Below, piece by piece: positions 52,597-64,000 of a stretch of DNA of 64,000 nucleotides (its first letter is position 1; each line of letters opens with the position of its first letter). Origin of the DNA: Bacteroidota bacterium. Lineage in GTDB: Bacteria > Bacteroidota > Ignavibacteria > Ignavibacteriales > Melioribacteraceae. The notes beneath the pieces are model-generated. The model saw nothing but the letters and a program-made list of their open reading frames with translations. It ran no database searches and was not told the origin of the DNA. The stretch covers positions 78,069 through 142,068 of the forward strand of contig JAHJUE010000014.1 in the NCBI GenBank assembly GCA_018829205.1. Reading direction: 5' to 3'. A program made the translations under genes and the position numbers.

Positions 52597-52789
52597 ATTA
52601 TTTCCTTTTAAAGTATTGCAAAAATATATAAAACATTGCATATCTGCAACAAGCCGCAATGAATATTGCGTAATTGCAAATTATATTTTATTAAGAAGCT
52701 TCTAAATAAGGCAAAAAAGCATTATTTATTCTGGAATGATTCTGGACTATTAATAGAAATTATACAATTCCTAATGGAGACCATTATAT

Positions 52790-53851
52790 ATGGCAAATAC
52801 AAATAAAGAATGGGTTAAGCAAAAAATCAAATTTTTCTGCAAAAAAATTGAAAAAGGAATTCTTGCTGATAAATCATTAAAGTGCCGGGTTGTATTTGGG
52901 CCCATACGTTCAAGAAGATTAGGATATGTACTTGGAATAAACAATGTAAAATCAAAAATCTGTTCTTATGATTGCATTTATTGTCCTTCGGGAAATACTA
53001 CTTGTTATTCTGTCTGCGCGAATTATTGTCTGTCGCCTTATGAACTTCATCTTTCAGTTAAAAATAAATTGGAAGAATTAAAGAAAAGTAACAAAAAAAT
53101 CGAGTACATAGTTTTTGCAGGCGGCGGGGAAGCAACTCTTGATTCCAGTCTATCAAAAGAAATTTCACTATTGCGTGAGTTTGGCTATAAGATTGCTGTC
53201 TTTACAAACGCATCTTTATTGTGGAATTACGACATTCAGGAAAACTTAATGTATGCGGATTATGTATCCGTTAAAATTGATACGGTTAATGATGATACAT
53301 GGATGAAGATAAACCGTCCGCATAGAAAACTGGACTATAATGTCATTCTAAACGGCATAAAAGAATTTTCACAAAAATTTAACGGTACCTTCGTAACAGA
53401 AACTACGCTTATTAAAAATCTAAATGATAACGCTGAAGAAATTGAAAATTTATCAACATATTTGAACTCTCTTAAACATGAAGCTTCTTATTTTATGACG
53501 CCAATTTACCCGCCGTCTGAAAGTTATGCCGAAAGTCCCGATAAAGAAATACTCGATCATTTATCCAAAATGATTAATGAAAAAGTAAATAAATCCGTAA
53601 TGCTGTGCTGTCCTAAAACAGAGGAGTTCTTTGCTACCGGTGATTTTGAAAATGAACTTTTGGGATTACTTTCACTTCATCCCGTAGGAGTTGAAGCCGT
53701 AAATCATTTTATTAAAGATAAAGTAGAGATAGAGAAGCTGAAGGATATGATCAAAAATAATGTGATAAAAGAAATAAACTTTAACGGCAAAAAATATTTA
53801 GCCGGAAAAGAGGACATAAATCTCAACATGCTTAACTATACTCATTCATAA
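52790..53851 (+). CDS. Radical SAM protein (paralogue 1)
   Basis: CxxxCxxC cluster motif CSYDCIYC (Cys58/62/65), preceded by FGPIRSRRLGYVLGINN. GGGEATLD and KINRPH motifs are shared with 61257-62192. Confidence 0.8.
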   Translation: MANTNKEWVKQKIKFFCKKIEKGILADKSLKCRVVFGPIRSRRLGYVLGINNVKSKICSYDCIYCPSGNTTCYSVCANYCLSPYELHLSVKNKLEELKKSNKKIEYIVFAGGGEATLDSSLSKEISLLREFGYKIAVFTNASLLWNYDIQENLMYADYVSVKIDTVNDDTWMKINRPHRKLDYNVILNGIKEFSQKFNGTFVTETTLIKNLNDNAEEIENLSTYLNSLKHEASYFMTPIYPPSESYAESPDKEILDHLSKMINEKVNKSVMLCCPKTEEFFATGDFENELLGLLSLHPVGVEAVNHFIKDKVEIEKLKDMIKNNVIKEINFNGKKYLAGKEDINLNMLNYTHS

Positions 53852-53861
53852 GAACTTAAGG

Positions 53862-54758
53862 ATGGATTCTAAAATGGTATTTGATCCTGCTTGTATACCG
53901 TGTATTATTAATCAGGCTTACAGTATTGCAAAAATTTTTACCAACGGCGATAAAGAAACACAATTAAACATTGTTAAAAAAGTCTGTGAAGAAGTCAGAA
54001 ATATTAACAGCGATTTTACCGCGCCGTTGTTTTCTAAAGTAATGCAAAAAATAGTTGAAGATAACCTGCGCGTTAAAAATCCATATCAGAATATAAAAGA
54101 AACAAATTTGGATGAGGCCGAAAATTATATTCCGTATTTGAAAACTATGTATGAGAATTCTGTAGACAAACTTGAGTTGGCTTTAAGAATTGCCATTCCC
54201 GGGAACATAATAGATTTAGGTGCTAATCCTAATTTTAATATTATAAATGAAGTTAATAAAATCACCTCCGACAATATTGATCTCTCTTCACTACAGAAAT
54301 TTAAAGAAGATTTGGTAAACTCCAACCTAATTCTCTATATAGGCGATAATTACGAAGAAGCACTATTCGATAAATTCTTATTGAACGAATTAAATCATAA
54401 AAGAGTTGTATACGCTGTCCGTTCAAAACCAATACTTAATGATATTACCATTGAAGACGCTTACAAATTAGGCATGGACAAAATTTGTGAAGTAATAGAA
54501 AGCGGCAGTACAATTGCCGGAACAGATTTAAGAGAATGCACTAATGAGTTTATGGATTTATATAAAAGCGCCGATATGGTAATATCAAAAGGACAGGGTA
54601 ATTATGAAACATTAATTGATGAGTCACGCCCCATCTATTTTCTTTTCAAAGTAAAGTGCGAGGTAGTGGCCCTGAGGTGCGGGGTTCAAAATGGTAATGG
54701 GGTACTTCTTTATAATAAAAAAGTGTTGAGAATTAAAAATGAAAAACTTCAATTTTAG
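53862..54758 (+). CDS. DUF89 / ARMT1-like (damage-control phosphatase family) protein
   Basis: N-terminal CIPCIINQ, GDNYEEALFDKF and KGQGNYETL motifs characteristic of DUF89. Confidence 0.65.
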   Translation: MDSKMVFDPACIPCIINQAYSIAKIFTNGDKETQLNIVKKVCEEVRNINSDFTAPLFSKVMQKIVEDNLRVKNPYQNIKETNLDEAENYIPYLKTMYENSVDKLELALRIAIPGNIIDLGANPNFNIINEVNKITSDNIDLSSLQKFKEDLVNSNLILYIGDNYEEALFDKFLLNELNHKRVVYAVRSKPILNDITIEDAYKLGMDKICEVIESGSTIAGTDLRECTNEFMDLYKSADMVISKGQGNYETLIDESRPIYFLFKVKCEVVALRCGVQNGNGVLLYNKKVLRIKNEKLQF

Positions 54759-55152
54759 CAGATACCTTTCAGTATTTCTTTGGCTTGTTGCGTTTCATTC
54801 TTTATGCGTGGGCGTTGGATTAATTGTTGTCCCATGCTCATTTATGCAGGACCTTGGTTACGGGATTTGTTCGGAAAGATTTTTCCGATCACAAGGGGGT
54901 GTATTTCATATTGTTATGGCTGTAGGATACTCAATGGCTGCATTCAATTCAAAACGGTTTGAGTGCCTCGTCATTTTTTCAGTAATCGTTAAATTTATCG
55001 CCGCTGTTTTTCTTTTCTATTATTACTTCATAATTAATCCATTAATTGTAATAATACTTTCCTGTGTTTCGGATTTAATAATGGGTGCTGCAATTCTATC
55101 TCTTTACTTGCTTTCAAAAAAAACAGAACAAAATTGGATAAAGAATGAATAA
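54739..55152 (+). CDS. Small integral membrane protein (about 4 TM helices), unknown function
   Basis: Hydrophobic helices. The ORF overlaps both neighbours (20 nt and 8 nt), consistent with co-translation in an operon. Confidence 0.5.
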   Translation: MKNFNFSRYLSVFLWLVAFHSLCVGVGLIVVPCSFMQDLGYGICSERFFRSQGGVFHIVMAVGYSMAAFNSKRFECLVIFSVIVKFIAAVFLFYYYFIINPLIVIILSCVSDLIMGAAILSLYLLSKKTEQNWIKNE

Positions 55153-56191
55153 TAAACTTCCATCTATTGTAATTACCGGAGCAAGCGGCTTTGTTGGGCG
55201 TTTTCTTCTGGAAAATGTAAGAGAAGAATTTAAAGTGTACGCTATTGCCCGGCGGTCAAGAAAAGAATCAAACATTCCGTACCACAAAAATATCCATTGG
55301 ATTCAATGTGATATCGCCAATAAGGATACGTTAAACGATGTCAAAAATTATATCAATGAAAATGGCGGCGCGGATTACTTGGTTCACCTTGCGGCTTTTT
55401 ATGATTTTACTTACATGGATAATAACGAATACAAGCGCACGAATATTGAGGGAACGTTAAACGTTCTAAAATTTGCAAAAGAATTAAATGTGAAAAGATT
55501 CATTTTTGCCAGTTCATTAGCTGCATGTAATTTCCCGGCCGACGGTGAAAAAATTTCCGAGACAACAAATCCGGAAGCTGAGTTTGCATATGCAAAAAGC
55601 AAAAGAATAGGTGAACAATATGTAAAGGAGTATTCAAAATATTTTCCTTGTTCCGTTGTTAGATTTGCAGCTATTTACAGTGATTGGTGCGAATACGCCC
55701 CGCTTTATAAATTTCTTTCAATTTGGCTTTCAAAAAAAATCGATTCACGACTTCTTGCGGGGAAAGGAGAATCGGCTGTTCCTTATATTCATGTGCAAGA
55801 TGTTATTTCACTAATTCGTATCATAATTAAAAACTCAAATAATCTTACTCAATTCAGCATGTATAACGGAAGCCCGGACGGCTCTGTTTCTCACAAGGAA
55901 CTATTTCTAATTTCAACGGCTTATTTCTTTGGGAAAAAGATAAACCCGGTTTTCATTCCCAAGTCCCTAACTTATCCGGGCTTATTTCTAAAGATGCTTT
56001 TAAAATACTCTCATCTCGTATGCGATGAGCCTCTTGAAAAATTCTGGATGATAAAATATATTGATAAAAAATTAGACGTTGATTCCAGCTTTACTCGTAA
56101 AGAATTGGCATGGGAACCCGCCCCCCGATACCATATTACAAGAAGACTTCTTTTTCTGCTTGAAAAAATTAAAAGTCATCCCGACGAATAG
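55145..56191 (+). CDS. NAD(P)-dependent epimerase/dehydratase-family (extended SDR) protein, ending at a TAG in frame with the next ORF
   Basis: Rossmann motif ITGASGFVGRFL and catalytic YAKSK. The stop TAG at 56189-56191 is followed by 37 sense codons in the same frame leading into the 56303 ORF. Confidence 0.8.
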   Translation: MNNKLPSIVITGASGFVGRFLLENVREEFKVYAIARRSRKESNIPYHKNIHWIQCDIANKDTLNDVKNYINENGGADYLVHLAAFYDFTYMDNNEYKRTNIEGTLNVLKFAKELNVKRFIFASSLAACNFPADGEKISETTNPEAEFAYAKSKRIGEQYVKEYSKYFPCSVVRFAAIYSDWCEYAPLYKFLSIWLSKKIDSRLLAGKGESAVPYIHVQDVISLIRIIIKNSNNLTQFSMYNGSPDGSVSHKELFLISTAYFFGKKINPVFIPKSLTYPGLFLKMLLKYSHLVCDEPLEKFWMIKYIDKKLDVDSSFTRKELAWEPAPRYHITRRLLFLLEKIKSHPDE

Positions 56192-56302
56192 CGGCTTAAA
56201 AACGAAGCGGTTTTACATCGTGTTGCGCGAAGAAACAACCTGATTATTTATGAAGCTTTAACCAAAAAGAAAGATGATATACTTCCGCTGATTATTGCCC
56301 AG

Positions 56303-56809
56303 ATGAACTCGCTCGAAAATAATTACAAATTTGAACGTTATAAAAAATTAAACGAAAAAGATTTTCAATGCTATATGAGCACTCTTTATCATCTGCTTAT
56401 GGCAACTGTTCGCAGCGGCGACCGCGGTCTCATGATTAAATACATTGACGATATTGCAATCAGAAGATTTGCGGAAGGATTTTTACCCGTTGAACTTTGT
56501 GAGACGTTAACAGTATTTAAAAATATTATAATCCGTGAGCTCTCGGCTATAAACGATTTTAAGAAGCTTGAACAGGAAATTTATGATTACATAGGATTAA
56601 CATTGCAGCTGGCCCAGGACGAAATAGAAGATTTATATGACAAACTCCTGAATCAAATTCCTCATGATAAAATTTCGGAGTCTCCTTTATTGCCCGACTG
56701 CAAAGAACTTCAGCGTATGATCAGGCAGCTTAGCGCGTTTTATCAAATTTCACCCGAAGACCGAAATACTTATGAGAACATGACAGAAAAAAATGAATAT
56801 ACCAGTTAA
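56303..56809 (+). CDS. Hypothetical helical protein, possibly the detached C-terminal domain of the upstream SDR
   Basis: Same frame as 55145-56191 with no intervening stop other than the TAG at 56189. No good RBS before the ATG at 56303. Confidence 0.45.
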   Translation: MNSLENNYKFERYKKLNEKDFQCYMSTLYHLLMATVRSGDRGLMIKYIDDIAIRRFAEGFLPVELCETLTVFKNIIIRELSAINDFKKLEQEIYDYIGLTLQLAQDEIEDLYDKLLNQIPHDKISESPLLPDCKELQRMIRQLSAFYQISPEDRNTYENMTEKNEYTS

Positions 56810-56840
56810 CTAAATAAAATTTAAAAGGAAAAAGAACAAA

Positions 56841-58190
56841 ATGAAAAAGTATGATATTGTAATTATCGGAGGCGGTCCCGCTGGAGTTACTTGCGCTCTT
56901 TCGGCAAAAAATACTTACCCTGATAAAAAAATTGTGTTGATTAGAAAAGAACCAAAACCGATGATTCCTTGCGGTATTCCTTATGTATTTAATACTCTAA
57001 AGGAAGTAAGCGATAATATTCTTCCCGACAATCCGCTTATAATGAATCAAATTGAAATCATTAACGATGAAGCTGTCGGCAGAAGCGATAATAGAATTAA
57101 ACTCGCAGATAACGGCGAAATTGAATTTGAAAAGCTTGTAATTGCAACAGGCTCGAAAGCGGTTATGCCGCCTATTAAAGGCGCGGATAAAGAAAATGTT
57201 TTTCTCGTAAGAAAGGATATTGAATATCTTAATAATTTAAAAACTCGTATAAATGAAGCGGAAAAAATTGTCATTCTCGGAGGCGGATATATTGGCGTTG
57301 AAGTTGCAGATGAATTATTAAAAGCCCGCAAGGATGTTACTGTTGTTGAGATGATGGATTTTCTTCTTGCTTCAATGGATGAAGAATTCGGTAATAAAGT
57401 AAAAGATATTTTAGAGAAGCAGGGCGGTAAAGTAATTACAGGCAAAAGCGTTCAAAAAATTCTAGGGTACGAAAAAGTAAACGCTGTGGAATTGAACGAC
57501 GGTACAATAATAGACTGTGATCTTTTAATCGTTTCCTGCGGCTACAAACCTAATCTTGAACTTGCCGAATCATTCGGCCTGGATTATGAGGACGGAAAAG
57601 GAATTTTAGTTGACGCTTATCTTCGAACATCCGAAAAAGATGTTTTTGCGGTCGGTGACTGCGCCGCAAAATATGATTTTTTTACAGGCGAATATTCAAA
57701 TATTATGCTCGCTTCAACCGCAATGGCTGAAGGACGGCTTGTCGGTTCCAATCTATATTCAATAAAGGTGATTCGTCAGTATTCAGGAGTTCTCGGTTCT
57801 TTCTCGACAAAAATTGGGAACACAGCTTTTGCAGTAAGCGGCATAATTGAACGACGCGCGAAAAAACGGTCGCTAGATTATACGGTTGGAGTTGCAAAAG
57901 CTGTTGACCGACATCCGGGTAAACTCCCTGGCGCTTCGGAAGTTACGGTCAAATTATTATTCTCAACTTACTCGCACACATTAATGGGAGCTCAAATAAT
58001 GGGAGGAGATTCCGTTGGAGAAATGATAAACATAATATCTGTAATGATCTTAAATAAAATGACTGATATTGATATCAACAGTATGCAAATAGGCACGCAT
58101 CCGCTATTAACAGCCTCGCCAATTGCTTATCCGGTAATTAATGCAACGGTAGATGCGATAAAAAAATGGTATAAACCACAGGTAGCTTAA
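56841..58190 (+). CDS. FAD-dependent pyridine nucleotide-disulfide oxidoreductase (NADH oxidase / CoA-disulfide reductase family)
   Basis: GGGPAG FAD motif, single redox Cys in PMIPCGIPYVF (the position of Cys42 in Nox/CoADR), second Rossmann motif ILGGGYIGVE, GDCA. Confidence 0.85.
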   Translation: MKKYDIVIIGGGPAGVTCALSAKNTYPDKKIVLIRKEPKPMIPCGIPYVFNTLKEVSDNILPDNPLIMNQIEIINDEAVGRSDNRIKLADNGEIEFEKLVIATGSKAVMPPIKGADKENVFLVRKDIEYLNNLKTRINEAEKIVILGGGYIGVEVADELLKARKDVTVVEMMDFLLASMDEEFGNKVKDILEKQGGKVITGKSVQKILGYEKVNAVELNDGTIIDCDLLIVSCGYKPNLELAESFGLDYEDGKGILVDAYLRTSEKDVFAVGDCAAKYDFFTGEYSNIMLASTAMAEGRLVGSNLYSIKVIRQYSGVLGSFSTKIGNTAFAVSGIIERRAKKRSLDYTVGVAKAVDRHPGKLPGASEVTVKLLFSTYSHTLMGAQIMGGDSVGEMINIISVMILNKMTDIDINSMQIGTHPLLTASPIAYPVINATVDAIKKWYKPQVA

Positions 58191-58205
58191 TTGATAGGAG
58201 TTGTG

Positions 58206-59033
58206 ATGAACGAACAAGACAATCAAAATAAATTTGAAGATGAAGAAAAACGAATTTCTGAAAATATTTCAAAAATAAAACACCGCATTGCTGTCTTTAG
58301 CGGAAAAGGCGGAGTAGGTAAAACAACCGTTAGCGTTAACCTTGCTTATACATTACAGTCTCAAGGTTTCTCAACGGGAATATTGGACGCCGATATTACA
58401 GGTCCAAATGTCGCCAAAATGTTAGGTATTCAAGGAGAATTAATTGTACTCGATTCGAAAATGATTCCTTTCGAAAATAAAGGCGTAAAAATGATTTCAA
58501 TTGCTTCGCTTGTACAATCGGGACAGGCTGTAATATGGCGCGGACCAATGCGCTCAAAAATTATTAATCAGTTTCTTGCCGATGTTGAATGGGGCGTGCT
58601 CGATTATTTAATTGCCGATCTTCCTCCGGGGACCGGGGATGAAATTTTAACAATAGCTCAGCATATGAAACCCGATTACGCGGTTATTGTTACTACCCCT
58701 CAAGAAGTTTCAGTAATGGACGCAGAACGTGCCATCAGTATGGCTAAGAAACTTGAAATCCCTTTTATTGGTGTAGTCGAAAATATGGCCGGTTTTATTT
58801 GTCCTCATTGCAGCGCGGTTATAGAATTATTCGGAGCCGGTGGAGGGGCATATTTGGCTGATAAGTACAATGTTCCATTTCTCGGTTCAATTCCTATTGA
58901 TATTAACGCGAGGATTTTAGGTGATAAAGGAATCCCGATTGTAAGCGAAAGAAAAGATTCTGAGGTCTCGCTTACATTTAGAAAAATTGTTGATTTAATC
59001 AAGGATCATTTTCAAATATCAATAGACGCATAA
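58206..59033 (+). CDS. Mrp/NBP35/ApbC-family P-loop ATPase (Fe-S cluster carrier)
   Basis: Deviant Walker A SGKGGVGKTT, DLPPGTGD, cluster-bridging CPHC motif. ATG at 58206 after AGGAG preferred over the TTG at 58191. Confidence 0.9.
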   Translation: MNEQDNQNKFEDEEKRISENISKIKHRIAVFSGKGGVGKTTVSVNLAYTLQSQGFSTGILDADITGPNVAKMLGIQGELIVLDSKMIPFENKGVKMISIASLVQSGQAVIWRGPMRSKIINQFLADVEWGVLDYLIADLPPGTGDEILTIAQHMKPDYAVIVTTPQEVSVMDAERAISMAKKLEIPFIGVVENMAGFICPHCSAVIELFGAGGGAYLADKYNVPFLGSIPIDINARILGDKGIPIVSERKDSEVSLTFRKIVDLIKDHFQISIDA

Positions 59034-59062
59034 TAAAAGATATTTAAATAAAGGAGAATTCT

Positions 59063-60430
59063 ATGCTTAGCAGAATATTAATAATTCTTGCGGCTCTTAA
59101 TATAACCGCCGCCGCTCAGTCTCATAAGGAATTTTTCACCGAAAAATTTCTTTCCCCACAGGATGTAACTAAAGCGTGTATCTCATGTCATGATTTATCG
59201 GCAAAAGAAGTTATGAGGACAAATCATTGGACATGGTTAAATGAAGAATTTTTAGATAGTGATAGTTTCGCCAAACAAAGAGGCAAAATAAATTTTATAA
59301 ACAATTTCTGTATCGCGGTTCCGTCTAATTATTCAAGATGTACAAGCTGCCATGTTGGATATGGATGGAAGGACAAAGATTTTGATTTCACCAAAGAAGA
59401 AAATGTTGATTGCCTAATTTGTCATGATCAATCAGGCACATACAAAAAAATCCCTACAGGCGCAGGAATGCCCGACAAAAATGTTGATCTTTTATTGGTT
59501 GCGCAAAACGTTGGTAAACCATCTAGAAAAAACTGCGGAATATGTCATTTTGACGGCGGCGGCGGCACAGGCGTAAAACACGGCGACCTAGATGACAGCC
59601 TTTATGATCCTAAACCTGAAACAGATATTCATATGGGCAAATTGGATTTTCAATGCATCGAATGTCATGTGTCGGAACAGCATAAAATTATGGGAGCAAG
59701 TCATGGTTCTATTGCTTCTGGAAAAAATCATATTTATTGTACCGATTGTCATCAAGACGAAATCCATAAGAATAAAATCCTTAATCAGCATAGTAATTCA
59801 ATTGCATGTGAAACTTGTCATATACCCGAATTCGCGCGCGTTGAACCTACAAAAATGTGGTGGGATTGGTCGGCAGCCGGAGAGGATAGACCAATATCAA
59901 AAGATGAATACGGTAAAGAAACTTATAATAAAATGAAGGGCGAGTTTAAATGGGAAAAAAATGTAATGCCGGTTTATAAATGGTATAACGGCAGCGCGTC
60001 GTATTATCAATTCGGTGATAAAATTGATTCAGGTAGAATAGTAGAGCTGAATAAATTGAACGGCGATATTTCTGATCCTGAATCAAAGATAACTCCATTT
60101 AAAGTTATGCGCGGTAAACAAAATTATGATACCGAAAATAATTATTTGATCGCTCCTAAACTTTTCGGTGAAAATGGTTACTGGAAAACATATGACTGGA
60201 ATTTAGCTTCTCAAATTGGAATGAAAGAAATCAATCTTCCGTATTCAGGCAGTTACGCTTTTGTTGAGACCGAAATGTACTGGCCAATAAATCATATGGT
60301 GGCTTCAAAGGAAAAAGCGTTAAAGTGTAATTCATGTCATTCAAAGGAAGGCAGATTGGATTGGAATAAACTTGGTTATCCGGGAGATCCTGTTAAGGTA
60401 AAAGGAAGAAAAATTAAATATGACAACTAA
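59063..60430 (+). CDS. Octahaem c-type cytochrome, tetrathionate-reductase (OTR) family-like
   Basis: Signal peptide plus eight CxxCH motifs (CISCH, CTSCH, CLICH, CGICH, CIECH, CTDCH, CETCH, CNSCH). About 455 aa, similar in size and haem spacing to the Shewanella OTR family. Confidence 0.8.
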   Translation: MLSRILIILAALNITAAAQSHKEFFTEKFLSPQDVTKACISCHDLSAKEVMRTNHWTWLNEEFLDSDSFAKQRGKINFINNFCIAVPSNYSRCTSCHVGYGWKDKDFDFTKEENVDCLICHDQSGTYKKIPTGAGMPDKNVDLLLVAQNVGKPSRKNCGICHFDGGGGTGVKHGDLDDSLYDPKPETDIHMGKLDFQCIECHVSEQHKIMGASHGSIASGKNHIYCTDCHQDEIHKNKILNQHSNSIACETCHIPEFARVEPTKMWWDWSAAGEDRPISKDEYGKETYNKMKGEFKWEKNVMPVYKWYNGSASYYQFGDKIDSGRIVELNKLNGDISDPESKITPFKVMRGKQNYDTENNYLIAPKLFGENGYWKTYDWNLASQIGMKEINLPYSGSYAFVETEMYWPINHMVASKEKALKCNSCHSKEGRLDWNKLGYPGDPVKVKGRKIKYDN

Positions 60431-60478
60431 GCTTTGTATTAACAAATATAAAATCAATGATTGTTAATAGGGGATGAA

Positions 60479-60925
60479 ATGGAAAATAGTATAAAAATCG
60501 GAATAATTATTTGCGACAGGTATAGAAGCTGCGCTGGCGGAAAATGCTTTAAATCTCTTAAAGAAAAAGCCGGAGCGTTTGATATTTACGAAGGTAAAGA
60601 CGTTGAACTTGTCGGCTATACATCATGCGGCGGATGCCCGGGCGGCAATATTGAATACGCGCCGGAAGAAATGAAGAAAAACGGAGCCGAAATAATTCAT
60701 TTTGCAACCGGTATGATTGTCGGTTTCCCGCCTTGTCCTTATGTAGATCATTTTAAAAAATTTATTGAAATAAAATATGGGTTAAAAGTTGTCGTGGGCA
60801 CTCATCCAATCCCCGAAAAATATTTTACCGCTCATACAAAATTAAATACATGGGATTCTGATGATTGGAAGGAGTTTATTAAACCGACTCTTAAAAACAG
60901 AGATGTAAGATTGTCGTATGAATAA
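60479..60925 (+). CDS. CGGC-domain protein
   Basis: IIICDRYRSCAGGKCF and YTSCGGCPGG motifs. ATG at 60479 preferred over the TTG at 60461. Confidence 0.7.
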   Translation: MENSIKIGIIICDRYRSCAGGKCFKSLKEKAGAFDIYEGKDVELVGYTSCGGCPGGNIEYAPEEMKKNGAEIIHFATGMIVGFPPCPYVDHFKKFIEIKYGLKVVVGTHPIPEKYFTAHTKLNTWDSDDWKEFIKPTLKNRDVRLSYE

Positions 60926-60976
60926 TCATAGTATAAAGAATATAGTTTAACACTTCTTAAAAGGAGTAATTAGAAA

Positions 60977-61237
60977 ATGAGTAAGAATGATCTACCTATA
61001 ACAGTTTCTCAATTTTACTTTCTGCAGGCTTATTTATTCGAAATATTCAGATCTAAAAAAGAATGCAAGAATAATTTTGAATACACTGAATATTACCTGG
61101 AGGAAAATTACTCGGTAAATGAAATTAAACAGATTGAAAATTTCTTAATTCAAAACAACCTTAATTGTGATTGTGATTTAATAACAAAACTTGACTTAAG
61201 AAAATATTCGCTTGGCTTTATAAATTTTCATGAATAA
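60977..61237 (+). CDS. Small hypothetical protein (86 aa)
   Basis: RBS AAGGAG 8 nt upstream. No recognisable domain. Contains CDCD. Confidence 0.35.
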   Translation: MSKNDLPITVSQFYFLQAYLFEIFRSKKECKNNFEYTEYYLEENYSVNEIKQIENFLIQNNLNCDCDLITKLDLRKYSLGFINFHE

Positions 61238-61256
61238 TATTTTGTGAGATATCATT

Positions 61257-62192
61257 ATGTCAATTGTATTTGGTGCTATACCGTCGCGTAGATTAGGCAG
61301 AAGTCTGGGGATAAATAATATCCCTTATAAATATTGTACATATTCATGTGTTTATTGCCAGCTTGGTGCGACTAATTCAATGACAACAATAATAAGAGAT
61401 TTTTTTTCGCCGGGGGCAGTATTTGAAGAAACCAAACAAAAGCTGTATGAATTGGAATCGGCTGGCGAATTAGTTGATTATATAACGTTTGTACCCGACG
61501 GTGAACCGACATTAGATATAAATCTTGGGGTAATGATTGAGAAATTAAAAAGTTTAGGGAAACCTGTCGCGGTTATAACTAATTCATCATTAATAAATGA
61601 TAAAAACATTAGAAATGAACTTATGCTTGCAGATTGGGTATCGCTAAAAATTGATTCGGCATCACCTTCAATTTGGGAAAAAATTAATAGGCCGCACGGT
61701 TCATTAAGACTTAACAAAATAATAAACGGGTTAATAAAGTTCGCTTCCGAATTTTCAGGCGAACTTGTAACTGAAACAATGCTGGTTAAAAATATTAATA
61801 CTAGTTTCGGATCGCTTAGGAAAACCGCGGAAGTAATTAGTAAAATTAATCCTTCAACAGCATATATAATTGTTCCGACAAGACCGCCGGCCGAGTCTTT
61901 TGTACAAGCTCCGGATGAAGAGAGAATAAATGCAGCGTATCAAATATTCAGCGAATTTAAAATTAACGCCGAATTATTAACCCATTATGAAGGCGCGGAG
62001 TTTTCATACACTCATGACGTTCAAAAAGAACTGCTCAGCATTCTTGCAGTTCATCCGATGAGAATAGACGCGGTAAAAGTGTTATTAAATAAGGCAAATT
62101 CGGGATGGGAAATTATAGATAATTTAATAAAGAAGAATTTAATCAAAGAATCTACATACTCGAATAATTCCTTTATAATTAGGAAATATTAG
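61257..62192 (+). CDS. Radical SAM protein (paralogue 2)
   Basis: CTYSCVYC (Cys27/31/34) after FGAIPSRRLGRSLGINN. DGEPTLD, KINRPH and VTETMLVKNIN are collinear with 52790-53851. Confidence 0.8.
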   Translation: MSIVFGAIPSRRLGRSLGINNIPYKYCTYSCVYCQLGATNSMTTIIRDFFSPGAVFEETKQKLYELESAGELVDYITFVPDGEPTLDINLGVMIEKLKSLGKPVAVITNSSLINDKNIRNELMLADWVSLKIDSASPSIWEKINRPHGSLRLNKIINGLIKFASEFSGELVTETMLVKNINTSFGSLRKTAEVISKINPSTAYIIVPTRPPAESFVQAPDEERINAAYQIFSEFKINAELLTHYEGAEFSYTHDVQKELLSILAVHPMRIDAVKVLLNKANSGWEIIDNLIKKNLIKESTYSNNSFIIRKY

Positions 62193-62202
62193 GAGGTTAA
62201 TT

Positions 62203-62514
62203 ATGGCAGTCGTGAAAAAGTATTCAAGAGATAAAAAAAGTTGCCGGGTTACTTTTACTCTTCCGAAAGAATTATGTGAAAACTTTAATGAGATAAGCGT
62301 TGTGGGTGATTTTAACAATTGGGATTCCCATCAGAATAAATTTTCACAGAAAAATCCCGACGGGTCGTCTTCTACCGAGATCGTTTTGGAAGCGGGCATA
62401 GAGTACAAGTTTAAATATTTATGCGACGGTATAACCTGGTTGAATAAACCTGACGCGGATAAGCAGATTGAAACTCAATTCGGTGATTCGAAAAATTCCG
62501 TATTGATAATTTAA
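62203..62514 (+). CDS. CBM48 / early-set (AMPK-beta glycogen-binding-like) domain protein
   Basis: VTFTLP...VSVVGDFNNWD...EYKFKYLCDG..W pattern typical of CBM48/E-set modules. 103 aa. Confidence 0.6.
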   Translation: MAVVKKYSRDKKSCRVTFTLPKELCENFNEISVVGDFNNWDSHQNKFSQKNPDGSSSTEIVLEAGIEYKFKYLCDGITWLNKPDADKQIETQFGDSKNSVLII

Positions 62515-62565
62515 CAGGTTTCCTATGTACATCGCAGTTGTTTTAAAAATAAATAGGAGGTTTAA

Positions 62566-62805
62566 ATGCCGAACTTAAACGGAACGGGACCCGAAGGAAA
62601 AGGAGCTCTTACGGGTAGAAGAAGAGGCAGATGCCGGGAGTCTCAAATCGAAAATTCCGAAAATCAAACCGCCGACGAAAAGGAGCTTAAAATCGGGCTG
62701 GGTCGCGGCGGAAGACCGCGCGGTAGAGGTTTAGGTAATCGTTTCGGAGGCGGTTTTGGAAAAGAGCAGGGCAGAGGCCGGGTTAGAGGACTAGGGAATA
62801 TGTGA
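62566..62805 (+). CDS. DUF5320-like small Gly/Arg-rich protein
   Basis: N-terminal MPNLNGTGPEGKGALTGRRRGRC resembles the DUF5320 signature (MPxxDGTGPxGxGPxTGRGxGxC). RG-rich tail. Strong RBS AGGAGG. Confidence 0.6.
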   Translation: MPNLNGTGPEGKGALTGRRRGRCRESQIENSENQTADEKELKIGLGRGGRPRGRGLGNRFGGGFGKEQGRGRVRGLGNM

Positions 62806-62820
62806 AAATTTAAGGTAACT

Positions 62821-63222
62821 ATGTTAATTGCTATAACAGCTGAAAGCCCGGATACTGATTCAAAGATTGCGGAGAAATTCGGAAGGGCTCCGTTTATAAT
62901 TATTTATGATACGGTAAATAATACTTCCGAGTATCTCCACAATCCTTTTATAAATTTATACGGCGGAGCGGGAATTCAAACTTCCCAATTTATTATTGAA
63001 AATAATGTAGAGGCAGTAATTACAAAGGATATTGGGCCAAATCCTCTCCGGTTTTTAAAATCCGCCGATATTAAGGTTTACCTTTGTACCGGGGGAAAAA
63101 TTATAGACGCTATAAAGGATTTTATTCAAATGAATTTAATCGAAGTTAAACAAGAAAGTATGGTAAATACAGTCGGAAGAAGACAGAAAGGCAAAAGAAG
63201 AAACCGGCATAGGAAACTTTAA
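62821..63222 (+). CDS. NifX/NifB-C-terminal-domain-like (dinitrogenase FeMo-cofactor biosynthesis family) protein with a basic tail
   Basis: KFGRAPFIIIYD start motif and GAGIQ...VEAVITKDIGPNPLRFL pattern typical of this fold. Lys/Arg-rich C-terminus. Confidence 0.65.
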   Translation: MLIAITAESPDTDSKIAEKFGRAPFIIIYDTVNNTSEYLHNPFINLYGGAGIQTSQFIIENNVEAVITKDIGPNPLRFLKSADIKVYLCTGGKIIDAIKDFIQMNLIEVKQESMVNTVGRRQKGKRRNRHRKL

Positions 63223-63287
63223 TGAAGAATTCGTTTAACGTTCAATATAAATGTTTTACTAAGAAGAATACTAATTAAGGAGTTAAA

Positions 63288-63662
63288 ATGAATCATCGCT
63301 TAGCAATTGCAGTTGAAGAAGGAAGAAATGAAGAAAGAGTCGCTGAACATTTCGGAAGATGTTCAAAAATACTGGTATTTGAACTGGATCAAAGTAAACA
63401 AGTAACAAAAAAAGAATCATATTTTAATCCTTTAAACGGGAATCACGGCGGAATTTGCCAGCTTCCGGGTTATATCAATCAATACAACATTAATACAATT
63501 ATTGCCGGCGGTATGGGCGCAAAAGCAGTTTCAAATTTCCATTCCTTCGGTATAGAAGTAATTACCGCGCCCGGTATGATTTGTCAAGAAGCTTTGAACA
63601 ATTTTATAGCAGGTAAATTAAGCGGATACGAAGAGTGCGCCGGCCATTCGCACGATTGCTAA
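63288..63662 (+). CDS. NifX/NifB-C-terminal-domain-like protein (second copy) with a C-terminal Cys/His motif
   Basis: HFGRCSKILVFE, INTIIAGGMGAKAVSNF. C-terminal ECAGHSHDC. Confidence 0.65.
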   Translation: MNHRLAIAVEEGRNEERVAEHFGRCSKILVFELDQSKQVTKKESYFNPLNGNHGGICQLPGYINQYNINTIIAGGMGAKAVSNFHSFGIEVITAPGMICQEALNNFIAGKLSGYEECAGHSHDC

Positions 63663-63674
63663 CAAGGAGTTATA

Positions 63675-64000
63675 ATGATTATTTCTGTTGCATCGGGTAA
63701 AGGGGGAACAGGCAAAACTACTGTGGCGGCAAGTTTGGCTTCGGTAAAAGATAATTGCGTTTATATCGATTGTGATGTTGAAGAACCGAATGGCCATCTG
63801 CTTCTAAATCCTAAAATTGATTTTGAGGAAAAGGTTTACAAAAAACTTCCTCAGATTGATTATAACAAATGCGATTTCTGCGGCAAGTGCGTTGAGGTAT
63901 GCGAATTCAATGCCTTAATAAATCTTAAGTTTGAAATTATTCTTTTTGAGGAAATGTGTCATTGGTGCGGCTCGTGCAAATATTTTTGTCCGGCTAAAGC
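63675..64000 (+). CDS. MinD/ParA-type P-loop ATPase with a 2x[4Fe-4S] ferredoxin insert, 3'-partial
   Basis: My own translation: MIISVASGKGGTGKTTVAASLA...CDVEEPNGHLL...CDFCGKCVEVC...CHWCGSCKYFCPAK. RBS AAGGAG at 63665. The ORF runs off the window end and is therefore absent from the ORF track. Confidence 0.8.
   Translation, partial: MIISVASGKGGTGKTTVAASLASVKDNCVYIDCDVEEPNGHLLLNPKIDFEEKVYKKLPQIDYNKCDFCGKCVEVCEFNALINLKFEIILFEEMCHWCGSCKYFCPAK

What the first reader, a model, noticed from the sequence alone, without database searches (positions are those of the whole stretch)
52790..64000. Sigma-54/PAS-controlled island of Fe-S, radical SAM, NifX-like and multihaem proteins: a candidate uncharacterised metallocofactor or redox system
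Sixteen co-directional genes with mostly tiny or overlapping junctions encode the following. There are two paralogous radical SAM enzymes, DUF89, a small membrane protein and an extended SDR with a helical domain. There is also a single-Cys Nox/CoADR flavoprotein, an Mrp/ApbC Fe-S carrier, a periplasmic octahaem cytochrome, a CGGC protein, a CBM48-like protein and DUF5320. Two NifX/NifB-C-like cofactor-binding proteins and a MinD-type ATPase with a 2x[4Fe-4S] insert complete the set. The locus continues past the window end. Scaffold- and carrier-type proteins (Mrp, NifX-like, MinD-ferredoxin, CGGC) together with radical SAM chemistry are the ingredients of complex metallocluster maturation. 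No nitrogenase, hydrogenase or other obvious client enzyme is present apart from the cytochrome. The divergent regulator has two PAS domains, one followed by a Cys-rich [15 protein letters not shown] segment, which suggests redox or small-molecule sensing. I know of no characterised function for this combination.
Basis: inference. Interest (0 to 1): 0.75.

Follow-up and report, generated by a model that had tools for sequence, protein, structure and literature searches.

The report
Expanded orange-protein (ORP) iron-sulfur operon
This is a real operon of about 19 genes in an uncultured Ignavibacteria-like anaerobe; its core and regulator match the partly studied "orange protein" iron-sulfur system of sulfate reducers, enlarged here with radical SAM and other enzymes of unknown role.

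Summary
Every domain call was reproduced, the genes are co-directional and tightly packed, and the locus runs 2.2 kb past the window end. There it adds a second MinD-ferredoxin ATPase, a third NifX-like protein and a Dps.

The claim that no characterised function is known is only partly right. The regulator and core genes correspond to the ORP (orange protein) system of Desulfovibrio:
- The divergent sigma-54 activator carries the C-x8-C-x3-C triad of OrpR, the [4Fe-4S] redox sensor, inside its second PAS domain.
- The Mrp protein scores best against NCBI's MrpORP model.
- One NifX-like protein is closest to the crystallised orange protein.
- Two MinD ATPases with 2x[4Fe-4S] inserts match the published description of Orp3 and Orp4.

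Not found described in the papers I could read: this core lies in one operon with two radical SAM paralogues, DUF89, CGGC, a CoA-disulfide/persulfide-reductase-like flavoprotein, an octahaem Otr-family cytochrome, DUF5320 and Dps. The block is syntenic in several Ignavibacteriota genomes. The radical SAM family also sits beside ORP-type genes in distant bacteria and archaea.

The physiological function of ORP is still unknown. My best reading is low-redox-induced Fe-S or iron-sulfide handling. Verdict: a new variant of a known kind, of moderate interest.

The parts
50857..52596 (-). OrpR-like sigma-54 enhancer-binding protein, PAS1-PAS2-AAA+-HTH_8, 579 aa from the ATG at 52596. PAS2 carries the Cys184-x8-Cys193-x3-Cys197 triad.
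   Evidence: Pfam Sigma54_activat 8.7e-71, two PAS_9 stretches, HTH_8. The triad has the same spacing as OrpR C52/C61/C65 (PMC8359166). It is invariant in five orthologues of 68-76% identity.
52636..52679 (.). Two 14-bp palindromes, TTGCATATCTGCAA and TTGCGTAATTGCAA, 30 bp apart. Candidate activator-binding sites (UAS).
   Evidence: Only 3 matches to TTGC-N6-GCAA in 64 kb, and 2 of them are here. TTGCA-N4-TGCAA copies occur at the same place in the orthologous intergenic regions of L034, L012, L013, L071 and L010.
52732..52747 (+). -24/-12-like element TGGAAT-GATTC-TGGAC, 43 nt before the first start codon. A degenerate sigma-54 promoter candidate: the -12 GC is missing.
   Evidence: Positional homologues in orthologous loci: L012 TGGCAC-N5-TTGCG (perfect), L071 TGGCAT-N5-TTGAG, L010 GGGCAC-N5-TTGGC, L013 CGGCAT-N5-TTGGC, L034 TGGAAT-N5-TAGCA. 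A consensus search alone is at chance level.
52790..53851 (+). rSAM paralogue 1 (353 aa) with an N-terminal extension and seven extra Cys, most of them conserved in its four orthologues.
   Evidence: PF04055. Alignment with four orthologues of 59-62% identity. Cys positions.
53862..54758 (+). DUF89/ARMT1-like metal-dependent phosphatase with an N-terminal CxxC.
   Evidence: PF01937 7.6e-56. Nearest solved structures PH1575 2G8L and AF1104 2FFJ. Found near the rSAM in 9-12 of 80 loci, archaea included.
54739..55152 (+). Small membrane protein (137 aa) with no family match.
   Evidence: No Pfam or NCBIfam hit.
55145..56809 (+). One gene for an extended SDR/epimerase with a C-terminal helical domain (about 554 aa), interrupted by an in-frame TAG at 56189-56191.
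   Evidence: Same reading frame, with no further stop and no ATG/GTG/TTG start codon in the 111-nt gap. Homologues read KSHPDEWRLKNEA where the window has KSHPDE*RLKNEA. An intact 547-aa orthologue lies next to the CoADR-like gene in L088.
56841..58190 (+). FAD/NAD(P)H disulfide-reductase-class flavoprotein of the CoADR / persulfide reductase / Nox group, with active-site Cys44.
   Evidence: Pyr_redox_2 5.7e-63. CoADR models score 228 bits, below their cutoffs of 458 and 579. Nearest solved structures: CoADR 3CGB, NoxA-3 6PFZ, CoA-persulfide reductase 8A56.
58191..59033 (+). Mrp/NBP35 Fe-S carrier ATPase with CPHC. It corresponds to the P-loop domain of MrpORP (Orp9).
   Evidence: PF10609 8.8e-95. 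Best NCBIfam hit is NF041136 MrpORP, 309 bits over model positions 2-249 of 365, below the cutoff of 450 because the C-terminal domain is absent.
59063..60430 (+). Periplasmic octahaem c-type cytochrome of the tetrathionate reductase (Otr) family.
   Evidence: TIGR04315 607 bits against a cutoff of 375. Eight CXXCH motifs. The N-terminus looks like a signal peptide by eye. In the same operon position in L003, L004, L010 and L088.
60479..60925 (+). CGGC-domain protein (148 aa from the ATG).
   Evidence: PF08821 9.1e-30. 59-75% identical copies lie next to the rSAM in 11-14 loci from several phyla.
60977..61237 (+). 86-aa protein with no family match, conserved immediately upstream of the rSAM in Ignavibacteria.
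   Evidence: No Pfam hit. 45-49% identical copies in L003, L004, L010 and L034.
61257..62192 (+). rSAM paralogue 2 (311 aa): a minimal rSAM core with only CX3CX2C, plus a C-terminal helix/strand domain that resembles a winged helix by eye.
   Evidence: PF04055. 722 representatives of 50%-identity clusters at E<=1e-30. About 50% identical from Ignavibacteria to Thermoplasmata. AF2 model pLDDT 78, with only generic rSAM structural neighbours.
62203..62514 (+). 103-aa protein with a weak CBM48/AMPK-CBM-like match.
   Evidence: PF16561 1.5e-4, below its cutoff. 68-74% identical copies directly after the rSAM in L004, L005, L034 and L078.
62566..62805 (+). DUF5320: 79 aa, pI 11.5, 21 Gly, 13 Arg, one Cys.
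   Evidence: PF17253. Composition. Sits immediately upstream of a NifX-like gene here and in L003, L011, L012, L087 and L088.
62821..63222 (+). NifX-like (Nitro_FeMo-Co) protein of the MTH1175 type with a short cationic tail, GRRQKGKRRNRHRKL.
   Evidence: PF02579 3.2e-20. Best solved relative is MTH1175, 1EO1, 8.4e-19. Tail pI 12.
63288..63662 (+). NifX-like protein that corresponds to the C-terminal Di-Nase domain of MrpORP.
   Evidence: PF02579 1e-15. NF041136 MrpORP model positions 266-365, 1.5e-16. It carries HFGRC and a C-terminal HSHDC, compared with the published CxHFGHCE and CDH motifs (PMC6345978).
63675..64000 (+). 5' part of the first of two MinD/CbiA ATPases with a 2x[4Fe-4S] ferredoxin insert (Orp3/Orp4-like). 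The gene ends at window-equivalent position 64529.
   Evidence: CbiA plus Fer4. The full 284-aa gene is followed by a 293-aa paralogue, a 124-aa ORP-like NifX protein (best solved relative 2WFB, 6.6e-19) and a 147-aa Dps in L001.

Best explanation
The locus is an enlarged version of the ORP (orange protein complex) system, controlled by an OrpR-type regulator.

Regulation (inferred from OrpR):
- The divergent sigma-54 activator holds a redox-sensitive [4Fe-4S] cluster on the Cys184/193/197 triad of its second PAS domain.
- At low redox potential it is active. It binds the two TTGCA-N4-TGCAA palindromes upstream of the first gene.
- It then drives sigma-54 RNA polymerase from the -24/-12-like element at 52732-52747.
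- The result would be one transcript of about 13.4 kb running from the first rSAM gene to the Dps gene, which lies just past the window end.

Core products:
- An Mrp/NBP35 carrier.
- Two MinD-type ATPases with 2x[4Fe-4S] inserts.
- Three NifX-like cluster-binding proteins.
By analogy with Desulfovibrio, these form a complex that receives Fe-S clusters from Mrp.

Iron and iron-sulfide buffering (inferred): the DUF5320 Gly/Arg-rich peptide, the cationic-tailed NifX-like protein and Dps.

Sulfur-compound reductases that this lineage has added: the persulfide-reductase-like flavoprotein and the periplasmic Otr-family cytochrome.

Unknown chemical steps: the two rSAM enzymes, DUF89, CGGC and the SDR-helical protein. 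They are genomically tied to the ORP core.

What is shown: homology, the Cys triad, synteny, and the conserved upstream palindromes and promoter-like elements. What is inferred: single-transcript status, the direction of redox control and the Fe-S handling role.
For: Regulator:
- The PAS-AAA+-HTH_8 architecture and the C-x8-C-x3-C triad match OrpR (PMC8359166).
- The triad is invariant in five orthologues.
- Palindromes and -24/-12-like elements are conserved by position in six orthologous intergenic regions.

Core genes:
- Mrp scores best against MrpORP.
- The protein at 63288-63662 matches the MrpORP C-terminal domain.
- The third NifX-like protein is closest to the crystallised orange protein, 2WFB, E = 6.6e-19.
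- There are two paralogous MinD-2xFer4 ATPases, as described for Orp3 and Orp4 (PMC6345978).

Operon structure: junctions are tight and there are no + strand terminators.

Synteny:
- The block recurs in L003, L004, L010, L087 and L088.
- 29 of 39 rSAM loci of at least 15 kb carry at least one ORP-type gene within 10 kb, archaeal loci included.
- Iron and Fe-S genes recur nearby: FeoB, NifU, Dps and Mrp.
Against: - The physiological role of ORP is unknown even in Desulfovibrio, where a link to cell division was proposed. The Fe-S handling role is therefore an inference.
- The promoter element in the window lacks the -12 GC.
- The layout differs from D. vulgaris: one co-directional operon rather than two divergent ones, and Mrp and its Di-Nase domain are separate genes 4.2 kb apart.
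- The published D/E residue two positions after the first Cys is Asn here.
- Gene modules are shuffled between genomes, and the first gene after the promoter differs in each.
- The SDR-helical gene carries a premature stop.
Confidence: 0.6

Rival explanations
1. The locus is a pathway for a new complex metal-sulfur cofactor, built on the logic of nitrogenase maturation. The rSAM enzymes would modify a cluster held on NifX-like carriers, with help from NifH-like SIMIBI ATPases and Mrp.
For: - The rSAM family lies beside NifX-like, MinD-ferredoxin and Mrp genes in distant bacterial and archaeal phyla.
- rSAM paralogue 1 has seven extra Cys, most of them conserved, that could hold an auxiliary cluster.
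- The orange protein is known to carry an unusual Mo-Cu-S cluster (PMC6345978).
Against: - The rSAM next to the ORP genes has only the CX3CX2C cysteines.
- Neither paralogue hits NifB models. The hits to TYW1, MoaA and viperin models are far below their cutoffs.
- The structural neighbours are generic, with TM-scores of 0.5-0.6.
- No rSAM-NifX fusion was found among the 10 longer-than-usual proteins scanned out of the best 150 representatives.
- No conserved client enzyme is present.
- Characterised ORP components bind ordinary Fe-S clusters (PMC6345978).
Confidence: 0.15
2. The locus is a cell-division or positioning system. The MinD-like ATPases would place the septum or polar structures, as proposed for ORP in Desulfovibrio. 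The Fe-S parts would serve only as redox inputs.
For: - Inactivating OrpR causes morphological defects in D. vulgaris.
- MrpORP is polar there, and Orp3 and Orp4 have MinD-like C-terminal helices (PMC8359166; PMC6345978).
- The ATPases here hit MinD models.
Against: - No division genes lie in or near the operon.
- The recurrent neighbours are iron, sulfur and redox genes: FeoB, NifU, Dps, the CoADR-like protein and Otr.
- The MinD model scores are far below their cutoffs.
Confidence: 0.1
3. The locus is mainly a sulfur-compound reduction or detoxification operon for tetrathionate, polysulfide or persulfide. The Fe-S and iron-sulfide storage proteins would cope with the sulfide produced, as in the IssA response of Pyrococcus to elemental sulfur.
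For: - A true Otr-family cytochrome and a persulfide-reductase-like flavoprotein are present.
- L088 adds Cys/Met PLP enzymes and a cysteine-synthase-like protein.
- L082 places the DUF89, CoADR-like and SDR module next to rhodanese and sulfur-transporter genes.
- The MTH1175-type NifX protein with a cationic tail, together with the Gly/Arg-rich DUF5320, resembles the published description of IssA and IssX (PMC5524996).
Against: - Otr is inside the block only in the window and four Ignavibacteriota loci (L003, L004, L010, L088). It lies 2 kb outside the operon in L087.
- The core recurs without any sulfur reductase in most phyla.
- The IssA tail features (about 70 residues, aromatic- and Gly-rich) are not met, and no DUF5320-NifX fusions were found.
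Confidence: 0.1
4. The genes are a juxtaposition of several independent units with no common function.
For: - Modules are reshuffled between genomes, and the first gene after the regulator differs in each.
- The SDR-helical gene is disrupted here, and the SDR part of it is called as separate fragments in L082/L083.
- The membrane protein and the SDR gene were not found in the 80 rSAM loci.
Against: - The junctions are tiny or overlapping, and there are no + strand terminators.
- The same long gene order occurs in at least five independent genomes.
- The linkage of the rSAM with ORP-type genes crosses phyla, in 29 of 39 long loci.
Confidence: 0.05

Closest known systems
ORP (orange protein) complex and orp operons of Desulfovibrio vulgaris Hildenborough (DVU2103-DVU2109; Fievet 2011; PMC6345978; PMC3897727)
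   Same: - Two paralogous MinD-type ATPases with two [4Fe-4S] motifs each.
- Several single-domain NifX-like (Di-Nase) proteins, one of them closest to the crystallised orange protein.
- An Mrp/NBP35 carrier that scores best against the MrpORP model.
- An adjacent, divergently transcribed sigma-54 activator with a PAS sensor.
- Occurrence in anaerobes.
   Different: - One co-directional operon of about 19 genes, not two three-gene divergent operons.
- Mrp and its Di-Nase domain are separate genes.
- Ten to eleven extra genes: two rSAM, DUF89, a membrane protein, the SDR-helical protein, a CoADR-like protein, Otr, CGGC, an 86-aa ORF, a CBM-like protein, DUF5320 and Dps.
- The host is an Ignavibacteriota-like MAG rather than a sulfate reducer.
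OrpR (DVU2106), the [4Fe-4S]-PAS redox-sensing sigma-54 activator (PMC8359166)
   Same: - PAS-AAA+-HTH architecture.
- A three-Cys triad with identical C-x8-C-x3-C spacing inside the PAS domain.
- A position next to its presumed target operon.
- Palindromic sites upstream of a -24/-12-type element.
   Different: - An additional N-terminal PAS domain, absent in the L071 orthologue.
- A different palindrome: TTGCA-N4-TGCAA against GGGCGYRTTTTGCGCCC.
- GSFTGA instead of GAFTDA.
- Asn instead of Asp/Glu two residues after the first Cys.
- Cluster binding has not been tested here.
IssA/IssX thioferrate storage proteins of Pyrococcus and relatives (PMC5524996)
   Same: - An IPR003731 (NifX-like) domain protein whose nearest solved relative is MTH1175, the IssA-type protein used to model IssA's globular domain.
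- A cationic tail, with a Gly/Arg-rich basic polypeptide (DUF5320) encoded right next to it.
   Different: - The tail is about 20 residues and lacks the aromatic- and Gly-rich repeat.
- The Gly/Arg-rich part is a separate 79-aa protein.
- No evidence of nanoparticles.
NifB/NifX/NifH logic of nitrogenase cofactor assembly
   Same: An rSAM enzyme, NifX-like carriers and SIMIBI-class ATPases with Fe-S clusters are encoded together.
   Different: - The rSAM enzymes are not NifB-like, judged by family models, Cys content and fold neighbours.
- There are no NifEN-like scaffolds and no nitrogenase-like client.
Octahaem tetrathionate reductase (Otr) of Shewanella
   Same: Full-length match above the curated family cutoff, eight CXXCH motifs and a signal peptide.
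   Different: It is embedded in an operon of cytoplasmic Fe-S proteins. Its substrate is unknown.

Membership tests
ORP gene cluster / complex (Desulfovibrio Orp3, 4, 5, 8, 9) | Two paralogous MinD/ParA ATPases, each with two [4Fe-4S] ferredoxin motifs (Orp3/Orp4) | tested here: met
   Genes of 284 and 293 aa carry CbiA plus 2xFer4, each with two CxxCxxCxxxC motifs. The first starts at 63675 and the second lies just past the window end in L001.
ORP gene cluster / complex (Desulfovibrio Orp3, 4, 5, 8, 9) | A single-domain Di-Nase protein of the orange-protein (Orp8) type | tested here: met
   The 124-aa protein at L001 6083-6457 has D. gigas ORP, 2WFB, as its best solved relative, E = 6.6e-19. 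It lies outside the window.
ORP gene cluster / complex (Desulfovibrio Orp3, 4, 5, 8, 9) | MrpORP: an Mrp/NBP35 P-loop domain fused to a C-terminal Di-Nase domain | tested here: not met
   The two domains are on separate genes, 58191-59033 and 63288-63662. Each matches its half of NF041136, at 309 bits and 61 bits, against a whole-protein cutoff of 450.
ORP gene cluster / complex (Desulfovibrio Orp3, 4, 5, 8, 9) | Two divergent sigma-54 operons flanking the regulator gene | tested here: not met
   All structural genes are on the + strand on one side of the regulator. The other side holds unrelated genes.
ORP gene cluster / complex (Desulfovibrio Orp3, 4, 5, 8, 9) | The proteins form a physical complex, and Mrp transfers Fe-S clusters to it | not testable with these tools
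   Needs pull-downs and in-vitro transfer assays.
OrpR-type enhancer-binding protein | PAS sensor, sigma-54 interaction AAA+ domain and HTH_8 | tested here: met
   An extra N-terminal PAS domain is present. The GAFTGA loop reads GSFTGA.
OrpR-type enhancer-binding protein | Three conserved Cys in the PAS domain spaced C-x8-C-x3-C (C52, C61, C65 in OrpR) | tested here: met
   Cys184/193/197 in [16 protein letters not shown]. Invariant in five orthologues. The spacing is taken from PMC8359166.
OrpR-type enhancer-binding protein | Asp or Glu two residues after the first Cys | tested here: not met
   Asn in the window. The orthologues have N, E or S.
OrpR-type enhancer-binding protein | Palindromic binding sites upstream of a sigma-54 promoter of the adjacent operon | tested here: inconclusive
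   Conserved TTGCA-N4-TGCAA palindromes and a positionally conserved -24/-12-like element are present. The palindrome differs from the Desulfovibrio site, and the window's -12 lacks GC.
OrpR-type enhancer-binding protein | Binds a redox-sensitive [4Fe-4S] cluster that switches activity | not testable with these tools
   Needs anaerobic purification with UV-visible and EPR spectroscopy.
Otr-family octahaem cytochrome (TIGR04315) | Full-length match above the curated cutoff, with eight haem-binding motifs | tested here: met
   607 bits against a cutoff of 375, model positions 2-440 of 440. Eight CXXCH motifs.
IssA thioferrate storage protein | An IPR003731 domain followed by a cationic, Gly- and aromatic-rich tail of about 70 residues | tested here: inconclusive
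   The protein at 62821-63222 has the domain (best solved relative MTH1175) but only a Lys/Arg tail of about 20 residues. The Gly/Arg-rich DUF5320 is a separate neighbouring gene, and no fusions occur among 54 homologues.
NifB-type rSAM | An rSAM core with additional cluster ligands and a NifB family match, often with a C-terminal NifX domain | tested here: not met
   No NifB model among the NCBIfam hits. The rSAM at 61257-62192 has only three Cys. Foldseek places NifB at rank 31, TM-score 0.49. No NifX fusion in the 10 longer representatives scanned.
TYW1 wyosine synthase (the name JGI gives to homologues) | Match to TIGR03972 above its cutoff | tested here: not met
   21 and 19 bits against a cutoff of 318.
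CoA-disulfide reductase | Match to the CoADR equivalog models above their cutoffs | tested here: not met
   228 bits against cutoffs of 458 and 579. Class-level features are present: single active-site Cys44 and the FAD, NAD and dimerisation domains.

The most novel reading that the evidence does not exclude
The two rSAM families, DUF89, CGGC, the NifX-like proteins and the MinD-ferredoxin ATPases together form an ancient pathway shared by anaerobic bacteria and archaea. This pathway would make or remodel a non-canonical metal-sulfur species, for example a thiometallate or thioferrate-type cluster or a modified Fe-S cluster. The Desulfovibrio ORP complex would then be only its reduced remnant, and the long-unknown function of ORP would be cofactor or iron-sulfide biosynthesis rather than cell division.
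Probability: 0.15. Interest if true: 0.85.

Novelty: new variant of a known kind. Interest (0 to 1): 0.45.

Why it matters
The ORP system is described as anaerobe-specific (Fievet 2011, cited). Its components occur from Desulfovibrio to Ignavibacteriota and archaea, yet it has had no assigned physiological function since it was described in 2011.

This locus places the ORP core in one redox-controlled operon with enzymes, and that association gives concrete, testable leads for what ORP proteins do:
- Two rSAM proteins, a DUF89 phosphatase, CGGC, a persulfide-reductase-like flavoprotein and an Otr cytochrome sit in the same operon.
- The link to one large uncharacterised rSAM family holds across phyla. 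That family has 722 cluster representatives and is about 50% identical between bacteria and archaea.

The locus also extends the OrpR type of Fe-S PAS redox sensor beyond the Deltaproteobacteria, with a recognisable binding palindrome.

Tried and rejected
- Sigma-54 consensus search (TGGCAC-N5-TTGCW, up to 2 mismatches): 15 hits against 18 expected, none intergenic. The promoter candidate came only from comparing orthologous intergenic regions.
- Sigma-70 and terminator scans: at chance level, and uninformative except for the lack of + strand intergenic terminators.
- Rfam scan of the whole window: no match.
- PDB sequence search with the rSAM and with CGGC: no hits.
- Foldseek on the rSAM model: only generic rSAM folds.
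- Fusion proteins linking DUF5320 to NifX-like domains: none among 54 homologues.
- Fusion proteins linking the rSAM to NifX-like domains: none among the 10 longer representatives scanned. One TrmO_N fusion was found.
- Fievet 2011 (PMC3133258) is not held, and the OrpR supplement with the alignment is not held. No residue-by-residue comparison with Desulfovibrio proteins was therefore possible.
- Literature searches for DUF5320, DUF134, DUF89 and CGGC combined with ORP terms found nothing that describes the wider neighbourhood.
- Selenocysteine or programmed read-through as an explanation for the in-frame stop: rejected as unlikely. The stop is TAG at a conserved Trp (TGG) codon, which is one transition away.

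Full report
**What is in the sequence**

On the minus strand at 50857-52596 lies a sigma-54 enhancer-binding protein with two PAS domains, the AAA+ sigma-54 interaction domain and an HTH_8 domain. The + strand, from 52790 to the window end, carries in order:
- an rSAM protein;
- DUF89/ARMT1;
- a small membrane protein;
- an SDR/epimerase followed by a helical region;
- a CoADR/Nox-class flavoprotein;
- an Mrp/NBP35 ATPase;
- an octahaem cytochrome;
- a CGGC protein;
- an 86-aa ORF;
- a second rSAM protein, 36% identical to the first;
- a weak CBM48-like protein;
- DUF5320;
- two Nitro_FeMo-Co (NifX-like) proteins;
- the start of a MinD/CbiA ATPase with two ferredoxin motifs.

Junctions range from -20 to 65 nt, and no terminator-like hairpin lies in a + strand intergenic gap. 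GC content does not differ from the flanks, so this is an operon rather than a foreign island. The genes upstream of the regulator are unrelated: a thiolase, a hydrolase, FapA, CvfB and an outer-membrane barrel.

**Extension past the window end**

A public contig, L001, is identical to the window over 4666 nt. It shows that the locus continues with:
- the rest of the first MinD-2xFer4 gene (284 aa);
- a second, paralogous MinD-2xFer4 gene (293 aa);
- a third NifX-like protein (124 aa);
- a Dps (147 aa);
- a long hairpin.

The unit is therefore about 13.4 kb with about 19 genes. The source is annotated at NCBI as a "Bacteroidetes bacterium" MAG, and its nearest relatives are Ignavibacteriota MAGs.

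**A correction: the SDR and helical ORFs are one gene**

The SDR ORF ends in TAG at 56189-56191. The 111-nt gap before the helical ORF is in the same frame, with no further stop and no ATG/GTG/TTG start codon. Homologues read ...KSHPDEWRLKNEA... where the window reads ...KSHPDE*RLKNEA.... An intact 547-aa orthologue sits next to the CoADR-like gene in L088. The SDR and helical domain are thus one gene, with a nonsense change (TGG to TAG) or an assembly error at a conserved Trp codon.

**The core is the ORP system**

The best NCBIfam hit of the Mrp gene is NF041136, "iron-sulfur cluster carrier protein MrpORP". It covers the P-loop part of the model. The NifX-like protein at 63288-63662 matches the C-terminal part of the same model.

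[quoted passage not shown] That complex also contains two MinD-like proteins with two [4Fe-4S] motifs each (Orp3, Orp4) and the single-domain NifX-like proteins Orp5 and Orp8. It is encoded around the sigma-54 activator OrpR (PMC6345978; PMC8359166).

The three NifX-like proteins here belong to different subtypes:
- The one past the window end is closest to the crystallised orange protein 2WFB (E = 6.6e-19).
- The one at 63288-63662 is closest to TM1816 and PH0822, and to the MrpORP C-terminal domain.
- The one at 62821-63222 is closest to MTH1175 and has a short cationic tail.

**The regulator is OrpR-like**

OrpR senses redox potential through a [4Fe-4S] cluster that needs Cys52, Cys61 and Cys65 of its PAS domain (PMC8359166). 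That spacing is C-x8-C-x3-C. The window regulator has Cys184-x8-Cys193-x3-Cys197 ([16 protein letters not shown]) inside PAS2. This stretch is invariant in five orthologues of 68-76% identity from other genomes. One of those orthologues lacks PAS1 and so has the single-PAS layout of OrpR.

The published Asp/Glu two residues after the first Cys is Asn here.

**Upstream control elements**

The 193-nt intergenic region holds two of the only three TTGC-N6-GCAA palindromes in the 64-kb window, 30 bp apart.

Orthologous intergenic regions carry one or two TTGCA-N4-TGCAA copies at the same place. A -24/-12-type element follows 55-90 nt downstream. It is perfect in L012 (TGGCAC-TTGTG-TTGCG) and degenerate elsewhere. 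The window has TGGAAT-GATTC-TGGAC at 52732-52747, without the -12 GC.

A plain consensus search would not have found this element. The first gene after the element differs between genomes: rSAM, DUF89, Mrp, DUF5320, a ferritin-like protein or a ferredoxin-like protein. In each genome ORP-type or associated genes lie in the stretch downstream of it.

**Is the larger set a conserved unit?**

A scan of one genome per species with an alignment of the second rSAM returned 80 loci, the best of 596 confirmed matches. They come from Ignavibacteriota, Kryptoniota, Calditrichota, Anaerolineae, Desulfobacterota, Thermoplasmata, Bathyarchaeia, Methanothrix and other groups, at about 50% identity.

Within 10 kb of the rSAM, tblastn with the window proteins finds the following:
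- the MinD-ferredoxin pair in 18-19 loci;
- NifX-like genes in 20;
- Mrp in 17;
- CGGC in 14;
- DUF89 in 12;
- the CoADR-like gene in 12;
- close orthologues of the regulator (68-76% identical) in 5, plus more distant sigma-54 activators (42-50%) in 7 more.

Among the 39 loci of at least 15 kb, 29 have at least one ORP-type gene.

The full order Mrp-Otr-CGGC-86aa-rSAM-(CBM)-DUF5320-NifX-NifX-MinDFer-MinDFer-NifX recurs, wholly or largely, in L003, L004 and L010. L088 has the same order, with TrmO_N, PNPOx and cysteine-synthase-like genes in place of the 86-aa and CBM-like genes, and also carries the SDR-helical and CoADR-like genes. L087, from an Ignavibacterium, shows a shorter form with the divergent regulator.

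An unbiased clustering of all neighbouring ORFs adds recurrent partners that are absent from the window: a metallo-beta-lactamase-fold protein, a class I methyltransferase, an ArsP_2 permease, DUF134, FeoB and a NifU-like protein.

The octahaem cytochrome, the 86-aa ORF, the CBM-like protein, DUF5320 and Dps were found only in the window and the Ignavibacteriota-like loci. I found no paper in the library that describes this wider neighbourhood.

**The rSAM enzymes**

The family next to the ORP genes is large: 722 representatives of 50%-identity clusters at E <= 1e-30. JGI names it a wyosine synthase, but it scores about 20 bits against a TYW1 cutoff of 318.

This rSAM has only the CX3CX2C cysteines. 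It has no solved sequence relative. Its AlphaFold model (pLDDT 78) resembles PFL-activase, RlmN, viperin, TYW1, MoaA and NifB about equally, with TM-scores of 0.5-0.6.

The first paralogue has an N-terminal extension and seven extra cysteines, most of them conserved in its orthologues, that could hold an auxiliary cluster. No fusion to a NifX-like domain was seen in the 10 longer representatives scanned. One member is fused to a TrmO_N domain, and a TrmO_N gene sits in the L088 cluster. The substrate remains unknown.

**Most likely mechanism**

By analogy with OrpR, the activator is active while its PAS2 [4Fe-4S] cluster is intact, that is, at low redox potential. It then drives the operon from the sigma-54-type promoter.

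The core proteins form an ORP-type complex that Mrp loads with Fe-S clusters. This transfer has been shown in vitro for the Desulfovibrio proteins (PMC6345978).

Dps, the basic DUF5320 peptide and the cationic-tailed MTH1175-type protein plausibly buffer iron or iron sulfide. This recalls IssA (PMC5524996), although the defining features of the IssA tail are not met and no fusions support the link.

The persulfide-reductase-like flavoprotein and the Otr-family cytochrome add sulfur-compound reduction in this lineage.

The homology, the triad, the synteny and the conserved upstream elements are shown here. Single-transcript status, the direction of redox control and the Fe-S handling role are inferred. 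I give this reading about 0.6.

**Rival readings**
- A new metal-sulfur cofactor pathway: 0.15.
- A cell-division or positioning role, as proposed for Desulfovibrio: 0.1.
- A sulfur-compound operon with iron-sulfide storage: 0.1.
- A chance juxtaposition of independent units: 0.05.

**Verdict**

The locus is a new, much enlarged variant of the ORP/OrpR system, found outside the sulfate reducers. Its main value lies in tying ORP proteins to a widespread uncharacterised rSAM family and to other enzymes, which gives handles on a function that has stayed open since 2011.

Noticed in passing
window 56189-56191: An in-frame TAG splits the SDR-helical gene at a Trp conserved in homologues (TGG to TAG). 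It is either a recent nonsense mutation or an assembly error. An intact 547-aa orthologue exists in L088. In L082/L083 the SDR part is called as two separate ORFs of 76 and 210 aa, ahead of a 268-aa ORF that spans the stop position.
   Followed up: yes
window 52790-53851, and L006, L009, L012, L071: The first rSAM paralogue defines a subfamily with an N-terminal extension and extra cysteines (positions 17, 32, 72, 76, 80, 273, 274), most of them conserved in its orthologues. This suggests an auxiliary Fe-S cluster. The subfamily lies next to or near the minimal paralogue in four other genomes.
   Followed up: partly
L002-L081, within 7 kb of the rSAM gene: Recurrent neighbours of the rSAM family that are absent from the window: a metallo-beta-lactamase-fold protein (18 loci), a class I methyltransferase (17), an ArsP_2 permease (12), DUF134 (8), FeoB (8), a further CbiA/MinD ATPase (8), a second kind of rSAM (7) and a NifU-like protein (6).
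   Followed up: partly
P0312; L088 6624-7112: One member of the rSAM family is fused to a TrmO_N domain, and a standalone TrmO_N gene sits inside the L088 version of the operon. This may be a hint about the substrate or about SAM handling.
   Followed up: no
L001 6935-6998 (window-equivalent about 66269-66332): A long inverted repeat, CTTTGTGCCTTCGTG ... CACGAAGGCACAAAG, lies right after the Dps gene. It is probably the operon terminator or a repeat element.
   Followed up: no
L071 6192-7646: The orthologous regulator in this genome lacks the first PAS domain but keeps the Cys-triad PAS domain. This gives it the single-PAS layout of Desulfovibrio OrpR, so PAS1 is an optional addition.
   Followed up: partly
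L082 1-12321, L083: The DUF89, CoADR-like, small-ORF and SDR-helical module occurs in another bacterium. In L082 it lies between IS elements (ISL3, rve) and near two Sulf_transp genes and a rhodanese. This suggests that the module moves as a unit and has a sulfur-related context.
   Followed up: no
L002-L013, L034, L071, L087, L088: A pyruvoyl-dependent arginine decarboxylase gene follows the ORP-type block, directly or one gene (Dps) later, in most Ignavibacteriota loci. It marks a conserved downstream boundary.
   Followed up: no
window 40464-41999 and 50047-50805: ORFs of 511 and 252 aa upstream of the regulator have no Pfam match at E <= 1e-5.
   Followed up: no
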